Shown here piece by piece: positions 52,601 through 61,600 of a DNA stretch of 64,000 nt (positions are counted from its first letter, which is position 1; the number at the start of each line of letters is the position of its first letter). The DNA is from Malacoraja senta. Lineage: Eukaryota. The stretch covers positions 174,964,001 to 175,028,000 of the forward strand of contig CM075978.1 of assembly GCA_038087875.1 (NCBI GenBank), in the 5' to 3' direction. The position numbers are program-made.

Positions 52601-55600
52601 CATACTCATATGGCCTGGTTCACTATTAAACCAGTAAGGACCTACAGTGAAAGGGTTAAGGGTTAAAGAAAATAATAAGGACACATTCCCCACATGATGT
52701 GAAACATTCCCCACATCAACCAAATCTCCAATAATTTTCGTCATACATTCCAAACTCTGTTTTATGATGGAAGTTAGATGGTATACAGTAATTCTGACCC
52801 GCATCACCACAGTTGAAACATAGGAACTTACTAAGATAGTGGAGGGGTAGGTAGTGTAGAGAAAGCAGGGACTCTGCAGAAATACTTGGGCAGGTTGAGA
52901 GAGTGGGCTGAGAAGTGGCAGATGGAATACAGCATAGCAAAGTGCGGAAACATGTATTTTGGTAGTAGGAATAAAGGCATTGACTATTTTCTAAATGGGG
53001 GGAGAATTCAGAAAGGGACTTGGGAATGCCGGTTCACTATACCCAAAAAGTTCATTTGCAAGTCGAATCGACAGTAAAGAAGGTGAATGCAACATTGGTA
53101 TATATTTCGAGAGGGACAGAATTTAAAAAAACATCGATGTAATGCTGAGGCTTTATAAGGCATTGGTCAGACCACATTTGGAGTATTGTGAGTGGATTTG
53201 GATTCCATATGTGAGGAAAGGTGTGCTGGTGTTGGAGAGGGTCTGGAGGAGGTTTACGAGAATGATCCCAGGAATTATTGTGTTAACATATGATGAGCGT
53301 GTGAAGGCACTGGGTCTGTATTTGCTGGAGTTTGGAAGGATGAGTGGGGGAGAGGGGGAGTGGGGGAGGGGGGACCTCGTTGAAACTTACCGAATAGTGA
53401 AAGGCCTGGATATTTTTAAGGTGGAGAGGATGTTTCCAATAGTGGGAGAGGCGAGGATCGGCGGCTATAGCCTCAGAATTAAAGGACGTACCTTAAGAAA
53501 GGAGACGAGGACGAATGTCTTTAGTCGGAGGATGGCGAATCTGTGGAATTCATTGTCACAAATGTTCGTGGTATTTTTAAGTTGGAGATTGACAGATTTA
53601 AGGATTTCAGGTGTTATGGGGCGAAGGTAGGAGAATGTGGTTAACATGGAAATATAGTTAAGCCATGTTTGAATGACGGAGTAGACTTGATTGAGTGAAT
53701 GGCCCAATTCGGCTCCTGGAACTTATGAACTGATGATTCGATTTGGGTACTGATTGGGGAGATCGCCGCCCACCCCTCCCCCCTCCCTTTGATTGTAGGT
53801 ATATATTTAAACGTTTAAGCTTCTCCATATTGAACATCCCTTCCCGTCGGAATTGTTTGAGGTGTAATTTGGTAGAGTAAATTAATATTTTTTCAGGGAA
53901 CATATCACATGGCGCTGATCGTTATCTTCGTAGTTCATATAAGGATAATTTAGGAGGAATTTGCCATGAATAGACGTAACATTTAGTTTCAACGAATTCA
54001 TGAAATATGACTTCCACACGCGATGAACAATCACGGCATCTATCAATGCAATTGCAAAGGTCGCCATTTAGTTATTTCTGCCTGAAATAGATCAACAGTA
54101 AGAAATAAAAAATACAAATGCTCACAAGCTAAATTATTGATATCAAACAATTATAGTTAAATGACAACAAAATCGTTTCCACGTTGATAATGTATAATTT
54201 GGCACGGATTTTAAGTTGATGTCTTAAATTAAGCACGCCGTTAAATTCTAGTCCTTCACTTGTTCTTCGATTTGGCCCCTTCTGTTTTCTAGAATCTACT
54301 CAGCTCCACAGAGGCATAAATCAGCTTCTGACTAGCATTCACTCGCTTAGTCTGTGAATACAATGTTTAGGAATAGATCATTATTTAGAGAAGAAAGCCA
54401 ATTTAAAAAAAAGAAAACACTTTTACTGTTCCGAATGACTTGCGACAACCCACAACCTACCTCTGCATATGTGGTTCGTTCCTCCGTGCCTTTCATATTT
54501 GAAACCATCTTAGACCTGGATAAATCTAATGCTGCATATGAGCAGAACTCATCATTTTCTTTTCCCGTCCGCTGCAAAATAATGTTTTATTCATGTGTAT
54601 TACTCCTTATATGCAATTGAATTCAGATGGTGAATGCAAAAAGGCAATGTAATATTTTCAATTTCTCAAAAGAGTAAAAAAAAATGCCATGGCAGCATGC
54701 CGAAAATCTTTACACGTTGGACTAATTTTATCAATGACTTCCACTTTTTCTTTTAAAACGCTAGAACATTTTGGGTCCTGCTTATTAATCGATTTGAGCT
54801 CATCCTAATTGTTTCTGTGGTGTAGGACTCCGGAATCACGTAGTACCCACACAGAATCAGGCCACCCCCCCCATCGGGCTATGCTGATCTTTACGGCCTT
54901 GTACATTAATACCACTTGCTCTTATTCCCCACCTTATTCCCCATCTATTTACCTTGGTATCCTAAAGGTTTTCATACATAGAAATTGCATTTACGTCCAT
55001 TGTCTGCTCTTGCTGCGCTTTTCAGGTCTCAACTGCTCCTTCTACAAAAACCGTACCACTCAAATCCCCTTTAAAATTTATGTTCCCCATATTAAGCGTT
55101 TGTCCCCTCGCTTTTAATACCCATTGCAGGGAAATGAAAATCTATTCCATGACTGCCTTTGATCATTTTACATACCTCGGTCAAATCACCCATCAGCCTA
55201 ATTTGCCTCAACGAAAGCAACCCCATCTTAAACAATCTCTCCCAACAAGTAAAGTGGGCATGTAATTTGCGTACGGTAAGAGATTATATGAAAAGGCATT
55301 TTGAAAAGTCATTCAGGAAAATTCCGTAGAACGCACAAAAAAACCCGGGCAAATTCTGAATGCGTTTCTAAACGACTGAATTCACTTCATTCTGAAGTTC
55401 CTTTTAATCAAAATGCACCCGCAATTGACAAACATTTGTAGTTCAAAACTAGAATGTCAGAGCTGTTCAAGGTGCGCTAATGCATAAAGAAAGCCAATCG
55501 ATATTCATGGGATATAGTTACAGGTTACTGTACTTGAGTGGAGAGCGTTAATGCCATAGGTTAAAATAACCCGTAAAAATCTTAGCTTACCGTGTCTTCA

Positions 55601-58600: not shown

Positions 58601-61600
58601 CAGATGCACCCTGCCCGGGGAGAGGCCGCGGAGAGACTGCGGGGGGAGTATCTCACTCTGACTGTGANNNNNNNNNNNNNNNNNNNNNNNNNNNNNNNNN
58701 NNNNNNNNNNNNNNNNNNNNNNNNNNNNNNNNNNNNNNNNNNNNNNNNNNNNNNNNNNNNNNNNNNNNNNNNNNNNNNNNNNNNNNNNNNNNNNNNNNNN
58801 NNNNNNNNNNNNNNNNNNNNNNNNNNNNNNNNNNNNNNNNNNNNNNNNNNNNNNNNNNNNNNNNNNNNNNNNNNNNNNNNNNNNNNNNNNGACTGACTGT
58901 GTGTGGGTGTGGGGGGTGGGACAGAGAGAGAGAGAGACACACACACACACAGGCAGCGTGGAGTACCTTTAACCGTGTGTGTGGGAGAGAGACAGAGGCA
59001 GACACACACACACAACGGGCAGTGTGTACCTCAGTCTGTGTGTGTGTGTGGGGGAGAGAGAGACACAGAGACAGTGTGGACCTCTGACTGTGTATGAAGG
59101 AGATGGGGAGAGAGACAGAGAGAGAGAGGCACAGAGGCAGTGTGGTGTACTTCAGCGTGACTGTGGGGGGGGGGGAGAAAGAGCGCACAGGACGTCGGTC
59201 TATCTGTGTGTGTGGGAGGGAAGAGAGACTAAGCAGAATACATCGGTCTTATTGTGTGTGGGGGAGAAAGAGAGAGGTGGGGGGGGGGGGGGAGAAAGAG
59301 AGAGGTGGGGGGGGGAAGAGAGAAAGGGGGGAGACGTATATACACACAATGCAGAGTTTTACTGTGTATGTGGGAGACACAGATGGACTTACACAGATGG
59401 ACTTACCTCGGTCTTACTGTGTGTGGGAGAGGGGGAGAAAGAGACGTACACTCACAGAGGCAGAGTCTCTCAGCCTGTGTGAGAGGCAGGGAGGGAGAGA
59501 GAGACACCCACACACAAGGTGGATGTGAAATCTCACCTGCCTGTTTCAGTGACCGGCACCCGCCGCTAGTGAATGAAGACACCCCCATCTGTCTCCCCCT
59601 CCTCTCCCTCCACTCTCCACCCTCTCTCCTCCACCCCCCTCCCTCCTCCAACCCCCCACTCCCCCCCAATTTGGAAATGTCATCCCATCACCCATTCCTT
59701 CTCTCCAGAGATGCTGCCTGCCCGCTGAGTTAAAGAGTTCCCACGGAAGACTCACGAGTCACTAATGTAAACGCACGGGCCACTGCGTTCTTACAACGTG
59801 TTTAAATGTTTCAAATTTTAACCTCAAGAGTACATTTTACTCGTGGAAAAGTTTAAACATGTTTGAATTTTTCCAAGAGTTAACAAGTGTCACGGGTACC
59901 TTCCGTTAGCGCCAAGAGTCGCTGAGTTGCGTCCACGAGTTCCGACGTTCCCGCTACGTTAATCGTACGTGATTACCACGAGTTAAATTTGTTTTAAGCT
60001 CGGGGTACCTCGTGGGTCAGCTCGCACAGTGAGACAGGGGTTTAACTATGGGTGCTGCTTGTACGGAGTTTGTAGTTTCTCCCTGTGACCTGCGTGGGTT
60101 TTCTCCTGGAGCTCCGGTTTCCTCCCACATCCCAAAGTCGTACAGGTTTATAGGTTAATTAGCTTGGTAAAATTGTAAATTGTCACTAGTATGTGTAGGA
60201 TAGAGTTAATATGCGGGGATCGCTGTTCGGCGCTAAGTCGGTGGGCTGAACGGCCAGTTTCTGTGCTGTATGTCTAAACTCTAAAATCTAAACACGGAAA
60301 CAGACCTTCGACTCAACTAGCTCCTGACGACCAAAATGCCGCAACCACGCTAGTCGCTCTTGCACGCATTTGGTCGTATCTATGTAAACCTTTCATATAC
60401 ATGTACCTGTCCAAATGTATTTTAAATGTTGCTATATTACGTGCCCCTACCACCTCCCATGGCAGTTCGGTCCGTTTACTCAACACCAAGAAATAATGTT
60501 GAAAGATAGAACAACTGTGCGAAGATAACTGAAAGGTCGTGCTAGGAGAGGCAATGAATAGACGTTTACGGAGTTTTTAGATGGCATGGCATAGCGTGGT
60601 GGTTTAAAGATAAACACAGTGGATTGTAAATCAGGCTGAGTGCAATAATACTGATCCTAACCAAATTAACCCTGACCCTAACCAGGCAAGAGAAGATTGA
60701 AAATTAGTCTGTGAATAAAGGATGAAAGTTGCAAAGAATCGTTGGTCACTTCTAAATTATTTCAAGTACGTAAAGCCCGCATTGAACCATCGTGTTGAGA
60801 GTGTAAAGCATGTGGGTGCTGAGAATAATTGGAACACCTTGCGTTTTCTCAGATTGTTTTACAGCATATGCTGTTAATGCCTTGAATAAACCGACTTGTT
60901 TGAGAAACTCACCACTGCTCTAATCAATATTCTTGGTGTATGTCCCATTCTGCGCCGTAATTAGGAGGGCAATTCAAGGACATGAAAGCTAGATTTAGGG
61001 TATGGGTCAGGCACATAATTCCCCCCATTACGACGTTGCCATAAAGTTGAGTAAAACCCTAACACACTTATGACAATTTTTTAAACATACGAAACAGAAT
61101 AAATACAAGCCGATTGATTAGATGCTCACGTTTACTTCTCTTGATGTGTCGATACACCATCGTAATGATAAGCAGAAGAATAAATATAATTCCACCCGTT
61201 GCGCATCCATAAATAAGAAAATAGTTCGAATTATTGTCTGTAAAATAAAAGAATGAAAAACATATAACTGAAATTAACTGCCAGGTCCAGACCAAGACAG
61301 ATTAATTGTACTGATATTTAAGTTAAATATTTTACGAATATTCGCAAATATTTAGTTAAGTTTACTTTCGAGATACAGCTAAATAAAATCGCCAGTACAC
61401 TAATTCTCTCCTGCATACTGGGGATAAATTACAAAAGCCAATTAACCTACCCAATTTGTACGCCTAGGCAATGCAGTAGGAACCGGAGCACCCGGAGAAA
61501 ACCCACACAGTCACAGGGATAAGGTACAAACTCTCCACAGGCAGCACCCGTAGTAAAGATCGAATCCGGGTCTCCAGTGCTGTAAGGCCCTTCCACAAAA

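What the first reader, a model, noticed from the sequence alone, without database searches (positions are those of the whole stretch)
54289..61237. Divergent convergent paralog (gene B) revealed by exon architecture rather than sequence identity
Seen: TM 108 vs 111 nt (phase 1-1), spacer 44 vs 44 nt (1-0), Tyr exon (0-0) ending at Y-x-x, and a short last intron (109 vs 95 nt) before an ITIM exon, despite very low amino-acid identity. The genes face tail-to-tail about 25 kb apart. Inference: an old inverted duplication within a diversified inhibitory-receptor cluster; both members are inhibitory-type, and an activating partner with a charged TM might lie nearby.
[Added by the scan's program, not by the reader: the finding's places include an assembly gap (unread letters, written N; its length is only estimated) at 58668 to 58890. 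Whether the letters on both sides are continuous or in frame is not known: test that first.]
Basis: partly seen in the sequence, partly recalled or inferred. Interest (0 to 1): 0.65.

Follow-up and report, generated by a model that had tools for sequence, protein, structure and literature searches.

The report
Second SIRP-like inhibitory receptor gene tail
The region holds the membrane-spanning and signalling exons of a second inhibitory immune receptor of a SIRP-like family found in sharks, rays and chimaeras; it is an ordinary family member whose outer half lies beyond the window.

Summary
Gene B (minus strand) has a TM exon of 108 nt, a candidate 44-nt spacer, a 111-nt tyrosine exon ending Y-x-x, a 109-nt last intron and a 63-nt last exon with the ITIM LIYASV. 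Its stop lies 25,137 nt from the stop of gene A.

Exon architecture alone is not beyond chance: simulated windows gave a mean of 0.86 such chains, and 38 of 200 had two or more. Sequence settles it. A profile built from seven shark, ray and chimaera proteins ranks gene B's Tyr, TM and last exons among the top five of 3,459 window ORFs (E 2e-5 to 6e-4).

Gene A is V-set plus C1-set, and NCBI names its relatives SIRP-alpha-like. Gene B's exons score higher against shark and chimaera members than against gene A. That points to an ancient split rather than a demonstrable local inverted duplication.

Open points:
- The spacer exon has no sequence support.
- The TM-to-tail link crosses the assembly gap.
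- A leader-like exon sits 104 nt from the gap.
- The ectodomain exons lie outside the window.
- No charged-TM partner is in the window.

New member of a known kind.

The parts
61130..61237 (-). Gene B transmembrane exon. It is 108 nt, phase 1-1, and encodes an uncharged TM helix with a G-C-A-T-G-G motif followed by the basic stop-transfer RHIKRSK.
   Evidence: Acceptor ttttacag and donor gtgagc. Translation. The family tail profile matches window 61128-61238 at E 3.8e-5, HMM positions 3-39. Best pairwise score is 69 to P0008, against 32 to gene A.
59999..60038 (.). One arm of a 40-nt inverted repeat that straddles the gap.
   Evidence: Pair I1, 80% complementary, 2045 nt between the arms. Its 15-nt core occurs exactly only in these two arms.
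58893..59517 (.). Degenerate CT/CA-rich tandem array that abuts the gap.
   Evidence: Self-matches of 66-74% identity. TRF finds a period of 65 at 58916-59046. The first letters after the gap repeat the array's CACAGTCAG motif; 2 of 179 control chunks reach the same score.
58668..58890 (.). Assembly gap of 223 N inside the gene B TM-to-spacer intron.
   Evidence: It was not filled and not looked up.
58512..58563 (-). It has an ATG, 17 codons with a hydrophobic core (MQSESRWILVILCLCQM), one further nt and a gtgagt donor. It sits 104 nt after the gap in the direction of the gene.
   Evidence: Read. A pattern scan finds 1 in the window, 0 in the reversed window and 6 in 200 Markov simulations. 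No V or C1 exon follows it.
57914..57953 (.). The other arm of the 40-nt inverted repeat.
55591..55634 (-). Candidate 44-nt spacer exon of gene B, phase 1-0. It is plausible but not independently supported.
   Evidence: Acceptor tttctattag and donor gtaagc. It is the only candidate that is both 44 nt long and passes the splice filter. It has no similarity to gene A or to the family.
54461..54571 (-). Gene B tyrosine exon. It is 111 nt (37 aa), phase 0-0, with tyrosines at residues 12 and 35 and ending T-Y-A-E.
   Evidence: phmmer against 1.84 billion representatives gives P0003 at E 2.6e-6 and 48% identity. tblastn of P0003 gives 51.6% identity over 31 aa, ending at the exon end. The family profile gives E 2.1e-5. 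It is the reciprocal best non-self hit of gene A's Tyr exon within the window, at E 0.17 and 0.14.
54289..54351 (-). Gene B last exon, 20 codons plus TAG, holding the canonical ITIM L-I-Y-A-S-V.
   Evidence: The family profile gives E 6.3e-4. Best pairwise match is P0006, residues 214-233.
11906..11960 (+). Gene A leader exon (for reference).
   Evidence: Read. Phase 1, donor gttaat.
12131..12454 (+). Gene A V exon with a J-like end (for reference).
   Evidence: Pfam V-set 3.6e-11. 56% identical to P0001. Ectodomain profile 3.4e-30.
20207..20488 (+). Gene A C1 exon (for reference).
   Evidence: Pfam C1-set 6.7e-13. tblastn with P0001 1.5e-26. Boundaries read.
26155..29151 (+). Gene A TM (26155-26265), spacer (26825-26868), Tyr (28847-28933) and last (29029-29151) exons (for reference).
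   Evidence: tblastn with P0001 gives TM 7.7e-5 and last exon 1.9e-5. The family profile gives last exon 1.8e-6 and Tyr exon 2.5e-4.

Best explanation
The region holds the 3' half of a second gene of a cartilaginous-fish family of type I membrane receptors. The family has a V domain with a J-like end, usually one C1 domain, an uncharged TM segment, and a cytoplasmic tail built from roughly 37-residue tyrosine cassettes. NCBI's pipeline names family members SIRP-alpha-like, SIRP-beta-1-like, NKp30-like or B7-H6-like.

Shown:
- Gene B's TM exon, 111-nt tyrosine exon and last exon are family exons. They lie in the right order, on the same strand, with compatible phases.
- The tail carries one canonical ITIM (LIYASV), one degenerate ITIM (C-S-Y-A-A-L, where relatives have L-T-Y-A-A-L), and the family's conserved tyrosine at the exon end.

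Inferred:
- The four exons are spliced into one mRNA with V, C1 and leader exons that lie beyond position 64000.
- After the tyrosines are phosphorylated by Src-family kinases, the tail recruits the SH2-domain phosphatases SHP-1 and SHP-2 and damps signalling. This is the established mechanism for ITIM receptors such as SIRP-alpha.
- Genes A and B belong to two old lineages of the family, not to a recent local copy.
For: Database search:
- The 37-aa Tyr exon, searched alone against 1.84 billion representatives, finds P0003 at E 2.6e-6 in 4 stretches.
- names P0003 as a Heterodontus francisci protein.
- In P0003 and P0004 the tail is a run of 37-residue units. The tyrosines sit at the same residues, 12 and 35, as in gene B's 37-codon exon. 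The next unit starts T-K and carries K-L-x-Y-A, as does gene B's last exon.

Profile search:
- A profile of the TM-to-end part of 7 proteins (P0004 to P0010) was run against all 3,459 six-frame ORFs of 10 aa or more.
- The top five hits are A last 1.8e-6, B Tyr 2.1e-5, B TM 3.8e-5, A Tyr 2.5e-4 and B last 6.3e-4. Then come A TM at 0.71 and unrelated ORFs from 1.1 upward.

Gene A against gene B, exon by exon: shuffles reach the observed score in 6 of 5000 (Tyr), 19 of 5000 (last) and 77 of 5000 (TM).

Gene A's ectodomain is V-set plus C1-set. It is 56% identical in V to the Mobula SIRP-alpha-like protein P0001.

All splice sites are AG/GT, and the phases chain as 1-1, 1-0, 0-0, 0-stop.
Against: - The spacer exon has no sequence support.
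- The TM exon and the tail exons lie on opposite sides of an assembly gap, in an intron of about 5.5 kb against 559 nt in gene A.
- A leader-like exon unlikely to be chance (6 hits in 200 simulations) lies between them on the same strand.
- No AATAAA or ATTAAA lies within 1.9 kb after gene B's stop, whereas gene A has one at +48.
- The last exon is shorter than in the relatives and lacks their final tyrosine.
- A word-based search with the ORF around the Tyr exon among longer proteins found nothing: 2 candidates, none at E up to 10. No annotated protein of this species covers the exon.
- No V or C1 exon for gene B is in the window.
- No transcript evidence was available.
Confidence: 0.68

Rival explanations
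1. Gene B is not one intact gene. The TM exon and the tail exons are pieces of two family genes, or of a broken one. They were brought together by a deletion, a rearrangement between the inverted repeats, or a wrong join at the gap. The leader-like exon at 58563-58512 would be the relic 5' end of the downstream piece.
For: - The gap lies between the TM exon and the tail exons.
- The leader-like exon is on the same strand, 104 nt from the gap, and matches a pattern found 6 times in 200 simulations.
- 40-nt inverted arms straddle the gap.
- The intron is ten times longer than in gene A.
- There is no poly(A) signal near the stop, and the last exon is short.
Against: - No V, C1 or second TM exon lies between the leader-like exon and the spacer, so the downstream piece could not be a complete gene.
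- All three supported exons are open, with intact splice sites and compatible phases.
- Both the TM and the tail are of the same subtype, closest to P0004, P0006 and P0008.
- Both edges of the gap carry the same repeat motif, as expected for a gap within one tandem array.
Confidence: 0.22
2. A and B are the products of a local inverted duplication in this lineage. Gene B has simply diverged fast.
For: - The genes lie tail to tail, 25 kb apart.
- The spacer length is identical at 44 nt, and the phases are the same.
- The Tyr exons are reciprocal best hits within the window.
Against: - Gene B's exons score higher against chimaera and shark proteins than against gene A: 69 vs 32, 64 vs 38, 46 vs 29. 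Gene A's TM and last exons score highest against Mobula P0001, at 79 and 72.
- There is no DNA similarity between the loci.
- In one search, A-like P0001 and B-like P0010 of Mobula carry the same longest-contig length. This suggests both lineages already sit on one chromosome in a ray, but it is an inference from that number alone.
Confidence: 0.08
3. The gene B exons are chance open frames with chance splice-like dinucleotides.
For: - The architecture alone is within chance.
- The exons are short.
- The A-to-B tblastn E-values within the window are only 0.14 to 6.
Against: - Three exons are independently picked out by a profile built only from other species' proteins. Their E-values are 2e-5 to 6e-4 in the window's own search space, and they are collinear on one strand.
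- A whole-library phmmer hit at 2.6e-6.
Confidence: 0.02

Closest known systems
Cartilaginous-fish proteins named by NCBI 'tyrosine-protein phosphatase non-receptor type substrate 1-like' (SIRP-alpha-like): P0004 and P0003 of Heterodontus francisci, P0005 of Stegostoma tigrinum, P0001 of Mobula hypostoma
   Same: - Uncharged TM segment with the G-C-A-x-G-G motif.
- A 37-residue tail unit with tyrosines at residues 12 and 35.
- A unit junction at Y-A-E followed by T-K.
- An ITIM of the form K-L-x-Y-A-x-[LV].
   Different: - Gene B has one full unit plus a shortened second one (20 aa), where P0004 has four units.
- The first ITIM is degenerate, with C instead of L at -2.
- The ectodomain is unknown.
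Callorhinchus milii proteins P0006, P0008 and P0009 (named 'uncharacterized' or 'natural cytotoxicity triggering receptor 3-like')
   Same: The highest pairwise scores for gene B's TM exon (69, P0008) and last exon (46, P0006). The tail units are the same.
   Different: P0006 and P0008 have a V domain only, with no C1. Their last unit is longer and has one more tyrosine.
Mammalian SIRP-alpha (SHPS-1, PTPNS1)
   Same: - A V domain with a J-like end, a C1-set domain, an uncharged TM segment and several cytoplasmic ITIM-type tyrosines.
- PDB entry 2wng matches P0004 at 4.4e-9.
- The nearest named Atlas clusters of P0004 are SIRP-alpha-like and SIRP-alpha, scoring 0.96 and 0.95.
- The working mode (SHP-1/SHP-2 recruitment) is taken from established knowledge.
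   Different: - SIRP-alpha has V plus two C1 domains (recalled). Gene A and P0004 have one C1.
- By sequence, the ectodomain is about as close to antibody heavy chains (1e-9 to 1e-8), B7-H6 (2.6e-9) and UrIg2 (2.4e-8) as to SIRP-alpha. The pipeline name is therefore no proof of orthology.
- CD47 binding is untested.
Non-rearranging VJ-C1 genes discussed as relics of antigen-receptor precursors (UrIg, UrIg2, NKp30, PRARP)
   Same: A VJ-type V domain plus C1 in a non-rearranging gene. The class is described in PMC10751288 (passages read) and PMC12227049 (abstract and passages read).
   Different: - Nurse shark UrIg2 has a VJ domain and nine C1-type domains (PMC12227049), not one.
- 'ITIM' does not occur in either paper's main text.
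- The PRARP paper (Fu et al. 2019) is not held, so any likeness to PRARP is recalled only and was not tested.

Membership tests
Cartilaginous-fish SIRP-like V-(C1)-TM-ITIM family (P0001, P0003 to P0010) | TM exon with an uncharged helix, the G-C-A-x-G-G motif and a basic stop-transfer | tested here: met
   Profile E 3.8e-5 over window 61128-61238. Score 69 to P0008.
Cartilaginous-fish SIRP-like V-(C1)-TM-ITIM family (P0001, P0003 to P0010) | A 37-residue cytoplasmic unit with tyrosines at residues 12 and 35 | tested here: met
   phmmer 2.6e-6 to P0003. 51.6% identity over 31 aa. Profile 2.1e-5. The sequences were compared.
Cartilaginous-fish SIRP-like V-(C1)-TM-ITIM family (P0001, P0003 to P0010) | A following unit that starts T-K and carries the ITIM K-L-x-Y-A-x-[LV] | tested here: met
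   Profile 6.3e-4. Alignment to P0006 residues 214-233.
Cartilaginous-fish SIRP-like V-(C1)-TM-ITIM family (P0001, P0003 to P0010) | A short hydrophilic segment between the TM and the first unit (the spacer exon) | tested here: inconclusive
   A 44-nt candidate with good splice sites exists. It has no sequence similarity to the family or to gene A.
Cartilaginous-fish SIRP-like V-(C1)-TM-ITIM family (P0001, P0003 to P0010) | A V-set domain with a J-like end, with or without a C1-set domain, in the same gene | not testable with these tools
   Nothing Ig-like lies in 61238-64000. The exons would lie beyond the window, and no eukaryotic genome collection was on hand.
SIRP-alpha proper (orthologue of mammalian SHPS-1) | An ectodomain of V plus two C1 domains (recalled) | tested here: not met
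   Gene A has a single C1 exon. Gene B is unknown.
SIRP-alpha proper (orthologue of mammalian SHPS-1) | Closer to SIRP-alpha than to other V-C1 proteins | tested here: inconclusive
   In the PDB search of P0004, SIRP-alpha scores 4.4e-9, B7-H6 2.6e-9, Ig heavy chains 1e-9 to 1e-8 and UrIg2 2.4e-8. The nearest named Atlas clusters are SIRP-alpha-like, at 0.96 and 0.95. No tree was made.
SIRP-alpha proper (orthologue of mammalian SHPS-1) | CD47 binding and conserved synteny | not testable with these tools
   Neither binding data nor flanking genes are available. The window holds only retroelement ORFs besides genes A and B.
ITIM-type inhibitory receptors (functional class) | [I/V/L/S]-x-Y-x-x-[L/V/I] in a cytoplasmic tail C-terminal to the TM segment (consensus recalled) | tested here: met
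   L-I-Y-A-S-V in the last exon.
ITIM-type inhibitory receptors (functional class) | No charged residue inside the TM helix | tested here: met
   The TM exon translation has no K, R, D or E in the hydrophobic stretch.
ITIM-type inhibitory receptors (functional class) | The phosphorylated tail binds SHP-1 or SHP-2 | not testable with these tools
   This needs an experiment.
PRARP (recalled from Fu et al. 2019, which is not held) | Sequence relatedness to the chicken PRARP genes | not tested
   No PRARP sequence was available from any tool. Search one search found only a citation.

The most novel reading that the evidence does not exclude
Genes A and B may represent two ancient lineages of an as yet undescribed family of non-rearranging VJ-C1 receptors in cartilaginous fish. 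On this reading the family is distinct from true SIRPs. Its inhibitory tails would be built from a modular 111-nt exon cassette carrying two tyrosines, present in one to four copies, and conserved from chimaeras to rays. Such a family would stand beside UrIg, NKp30 and PRARP as a candidate relic of the antigen-receptor precursor. The leader-like exon and the inverted repeats inside gene B's large intron would then mark ongoing exon shuffling in the locus.
Probability: 0.25. Interest if true: 0.55.

Novelty: new member of a known kind. Interest (0 to 1): 0.3.

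Why it matters
The finding adds one more member to a receptor family that genome pipelines already predict in sharks, rays and chimaeras, so by itself it changes little.

It is useful in two ways. First, it shows that short signalling exons can be assigned to a family with a profile built from other species, even where similarity to the neighbouring paralogue is weak. Second, it draws attention to a conserved 37-residue tyrosine cassette, and to the V-C1 make-up of the family. 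That make-up is the domain pair that work on the origin of antigen receptors looks for (PMC10751288, passages read).

I found no paper on this family in the held library. Papers outside the library, and supplementary files, could not be seen.

Tried and rejected
- the 37-aa exon was too short for the word-based search. One search repeated it with the unspliced ORF around the exon among longer proteins; it found 2 candidates, none at E up to 10.
- the first architecture filter required a strong pyrimidine tract. It missed both real genes (0 found), so it was replaced by the relaxed filter.
- P0002 (2354 aa, E 2.5e-13 in 10 stretches, 34% identity) is a long protein with a repeated extracellular unit and a phosphatase-like end. 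I take this hit as weak matches summed over repeats, not as a relative. I did not test that further.
- Reading past gene B's stop: the 10 residues after it look a little like the relatives at that place, but 1319 of 2000 shuffles reach the same score. There is no evidence for a recent nonsense change.
- DNA similarity between the gene A and gene B loci: none was found.
- The inverted arms beside the gap extend only about 45-70 nt. I could not show that they are the ends of one mobile element.
- Two literature searches failed on a term that was too short, and one paper is not held.
Every search used one exon, or one unspliced ORF.
- Structure prediction, fold search, complex prediction and the bacterial/archaeal genome-contig collection were not used, because they cannot bear on the question.

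Full report
What is there.

- A 108-nt TM exon (61237-61130, phase 1-1).
- A 44-nt candidate spacer (55634-55591, phase 1-0).
- A 111-nt tyrosine exon (54571-54461, phase 0-0, ending T-Y-A-E).
- A 109-nt intron.
- A 63-nt last exon (54351-54289) with L-I-Y-A-S-V and a TAG stop.

Gene A on the plus strand has the matching set: TM 111 nt, spacer 44 nt, Tyr exon 87 nt ending T-Y-G-Q, a 95-nt intron and a 123-nt last exon. Upstream it has a leader (11906-11960), a V exon (12131-12454) and a C1 exon (20207-20488). The two stop codons are 25,137 nt apart, tail to tail.

The gap first.

The 223 N at 58668-58890 lie inside the intron between the TM exon and the spacer, 2,239 nt from the one and 3,033 nt from the other. 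No exon of the model touches the gap, so reading frame across it is not an issue.

Continuity is an issue. The TM exon sits on one side and all the tail exons on the other, and the intron length (5,495 nt as written) is only an estimate.

The window itself offers two observations:
- The gene-upstream edge abuts a degenerate CT/CA-rich tandem array (58893-59517). The first letters after the gap repeat that array's CACAGTCAG motif. Of 179 control chunks of the window, 2 reach the same score. This fits a gap inside one repeat array.
- A 40-nt inverted repeat (57914-57953 and 59999-60038, 80% complementary) straddles the gap. Its 15-nt core occurs nowhere else in the window. The arms extend only about 45-70 nt.

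Neither observation proves continuity.

Is the architecture more than chance?

On its own, no. I scanned for a relaxed version of the pattern: a 0-0 exon of 20-50 codons ending Y-x-x before GT[AG], a 70-150 nt intron ending YAG, and a terminal frame of at most 50 codons with an ITIM-type motif. It occurs twice in the window (genes A and B) and once in the reversed window. In 200 second-order Markov simulations it occurs 0.86 times on average; 116 of 200 had at least one and 38 of 200 at least two. An earlier filter that demanded strong pyrimidine tracts missed both real genes.

The spacer is the weakest part:
- 223 mini-exons between the TM and Tyr exons would restore the frame.
- 5 of them pass a simple splice-site filter.
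- 11 are 44 nt long.
- It shows no similarity to gene A's spacer (2066 of 5000 shuffles reach its score) or to the family.

What lifts it above chance is sequence.

Exon by exon, gene A against gene B gives local scores reached by 6 of 5000 shuffles (Tyr exon), 19 of 5000 (last exon) and 77 of 5000 (TM). The Tyr exons are each other's best non-self hit in the six-frame window, though only at E 0.17 and 0.14.

The decisive evidence comes from outside the window:
- Gene B's 37-residue Tyr exon, searched alone against 1.84 billion representatives, found P0003 (E 2.6e-6, 48% identity, four stretches). It also found P0002, which I set aside as a sum of weak matches over a repeated extracellular unit.
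- names P0003 as an uncharacterized protein of Heterodontus francisci.
- One search also returned relatives from Stegostoma tigrinum, Callorhinchus milii, Mobula hypostoma and Heptranchias perlo. Their names range from SIRP-alpha-like and SIRP-beta-1-like to NKp30-like, B7-H6-like and CD276 homolog.

In these proteins the tail is a run of units of about 37 residues. In P0004 the units are exactly 37 long, with tyrosines at residues 12 and 35, just as in gene B's 37-codon exon. The next unit begins T-K and carries K-L-x-Y-A, as does gene B's last exon.

I built a profile from the TM-to-end part of P0004 to P0010 and ran it over all 3,459 six-frame ORFs of 10 aa or more. The ranking was:

| Rank | ORF | E-value |
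|---|---|---|
| 1 | Gene A last exon | 1.8e-6 |
| 2 | Gene B Tyr exon | 2.1e-5 |
| 3 | Gene B TM exon (window 61128-61238) | 3.8e-5 |
| 4 | Gene A Tyr exon | 2.5e-4 |
| 5 | Gene B last exon | 6.3e-4 |
| 6 | Gene A TM exon | 0.71 |
| 7 and below | Unrelated ORFs | 1.1 and above |

Three of gene B's four exons are thus found independently, in the right order and on one strand.

What family, and how old is the split?

Gene A's V exon is V-set (3.6e-11) and its C1 exon is C1-set (6.7e-13). Its best database relative is P0001, the Mobula SIRP-alpha-like protein, at 56% identity; it was the one protein with E up to 0.01 among 84 candidates. P0001 matches gene A's V, C1, TM and last exons and nothing else in the window.

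Gene B's exons score higher against chimaera and shark members than against gene A:

| Gene B exon | Best family member | Gene A |
|---|---|---|
| TM | 69 (P0008) | 32 |
| Tyr | 64 (P0004) | 38 |
| Last | 46 (P0006) | 29 |

Gene A's TM and last exons score highest against P0001 (79 and 72). I read this as two old lineages of one family, not as a local inverted copy that diverged. These are short exons and no tree was made, so this is an inference.

In some searches, members of one species carry the same longest-contig length: Mobula P0001 and P0010; Stegostoma P0005 and P0007; Callorhinchus P0006, P0008 and P0009. This suggests they share a chromosome-scale record in each species. It is an inference from that number alone.

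Whether the family is SIRP in the strict sense is open:
- By sequence, P0004 is about as close to antibody heavy chains, B7-H6 (2.6e-9), SIRP-alpha (2wng, 4.4e-9) and UrIg2 (2.4e-8).
- The nearest named Atlas clusters are SIRP-alpha-like (0.96 and 0.95).
- Gene A has one C1 exon, not the two C1 domains that I recall for SIRP-alpha.

How it most likely works.

Shown:
- A type I topology, with the TM segment followed by the basic residues RHIKRSK.
- No charged residue in the TM helix.
- Three cytoplasmic tyrosines. One is a canonical ITIM (L-I-Y-A-S-V). One is a degenerate ITIM (C-S-Y-A-A-L, where relatives have L-T-Y-A-A-L). One is the family's conserved tyrosine at the exon end.

Inferred from what is established for ITIM receptors: phosphorylation of these tyrosines recruits SHP-1 or SHP-2 and damps activation. 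Ligand, cell type and expression are unknown.

What speaks against an intact gene B:
- A leader-like exon (58563-58512) lies on the same strand, inside the large intron and 104 nt from the gap. It has an ATG, 17 codons with a hydrophobic core, one further nt and a gtgagt donor. My pattern for such exons finds 1 in the window, 0 in the reversed window and 6 in 200 simulations. The pattern was written after seeing the exon. It also misses gene A's own leader, whose donor is gttaat. No V or C1 exon follows the leader-like exon.
- No poly(A) signal lies within 1.9 kb of gene B's stop, whereas gene A has one at +48.
- The last exon is shorter than in the relatives.
- No annotated protein of this species covers the Tyr exon.

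A pseudogene, or a join of two gene pieces, therefore remains a real rival.

Ectodomain and partners.

Nothing Ig-like lies between 61238 and 64000. The evidence:
- Pfam on all 37 ORFs of 40 aa or more that start at 61000 or later.
- tblastn with P0001.
- The ectodomain profile, which finds only gene A's V (3.4e-30) and C1 (2.3e-27) exons.

In one search I also scanned 44 of the 57 ORFs of 90 aa or more between 29.2 and 61 kb. The 13 left out are overlapping low-complexity frames at 35.8-36.5 kb, 51.1-51.8 kb and 59.0-59.7 kb. The ectodomain profile did cover them. That scan found only reverse-transcriptase matches.

No third TM or tail exon, and so no charged-TM partner, is in the window. One Stegostoma relative (P0007, named SIRP-beta-1-like) has an arginine in its TM stretch, so paired forms may exist in the family.

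Literature.

Searches found no paper on this family in the held library. I read the abstract and passages of PMC12227049 and passages of PMC10751288. They describe other non-rearranging VJ-C1 genes (UrIg, UrIg2, NKp30, PRARP) as relics of antigen-receptor precursors. The word 'ITIM' is absent from both main texts. The PRARP paper and PMC4594805 are not held.

Other limits.

I did not take the window for human; its only protein relatives found are from cartilaginous fish. No eukaryotic genome collection was on hand, so copy number across species could not be checked at the DNA level.

Verdict.

The entity is real for three of its four exons. It is an ordinary new member of a predicted receptor family. 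Still open are the spacer exon, the link across the gap, the leader-like exon and the missing ectodomain.

Noticed in passing
window 58512-58563 (minus strand): A signal-peptide-like first exon lies inside gene B's large intron, 104 nt from the assembly gap. It has an ATG, 17 codons, phase 1 and a gtgagt donor, and no Ig exon follows it. The pattern occurs 6 times in 200 simulations.
   Followed up: partly
window 57914-57953 and 59999-60038: A 40-nt inverted repeat pair (80% complementary) straddles the gap and the leader-like exon. Its 15-nt core is unique to these two arms in the window, and each arm adjoins a SINE-like fragment.
   Followed up: partly
window 54352-54366 (minus strand): The last 15 nt of the intron before gene B's last exon read, in frame with that exon, as T-L-Y-S-Q. 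This resembles the family's unit end T-V-Y-A-[EQ]. tblastn and the profile both extend into it. It may be a trace of how the cassette was duplicated, or it may be chance.
   Followed up: no
window 43862-47300 and 47467-50585: A direct tandem duplication of about 3.2-3.4 kb at about 96% identity, with an indel near 45473-45755. It carries retroelement tail fragments that also occur at 32.3-33.0 kb and 0.7-2.9 kb.
   Followed up: partly
window 37254-39581 (plus strand): A long open frame of 776 aa with reverse transcriptase (RVT_1, 5.7e-25) and zf-RVT (6.4e-5, below Pfam's cut-off). It is a LINE-type element between genes A and B. Many further retroelement fragments lie at 0-11 kb and 30-35 kb.
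   Followed up: no
window 28847-28933 (gene A Tyr exon) compared with P0001: The Mobula relative P0001 has no counterpart of gene A's 87-nt Tyr exon; its tail goes from the spacer straight to the last unit. The number of tyrosine cassettes therefore varies between family members, from one in P0001 to four in P0004.
   Followed up: partly
P0007 (Stegostoma tigrinum): This relative, named SIRP-beta-1-like, has an arginine inside its TM stretch and a shortened tail. It hints at paired activating and inhibitory forms in the family, though none is in this window.
   Followed up: no
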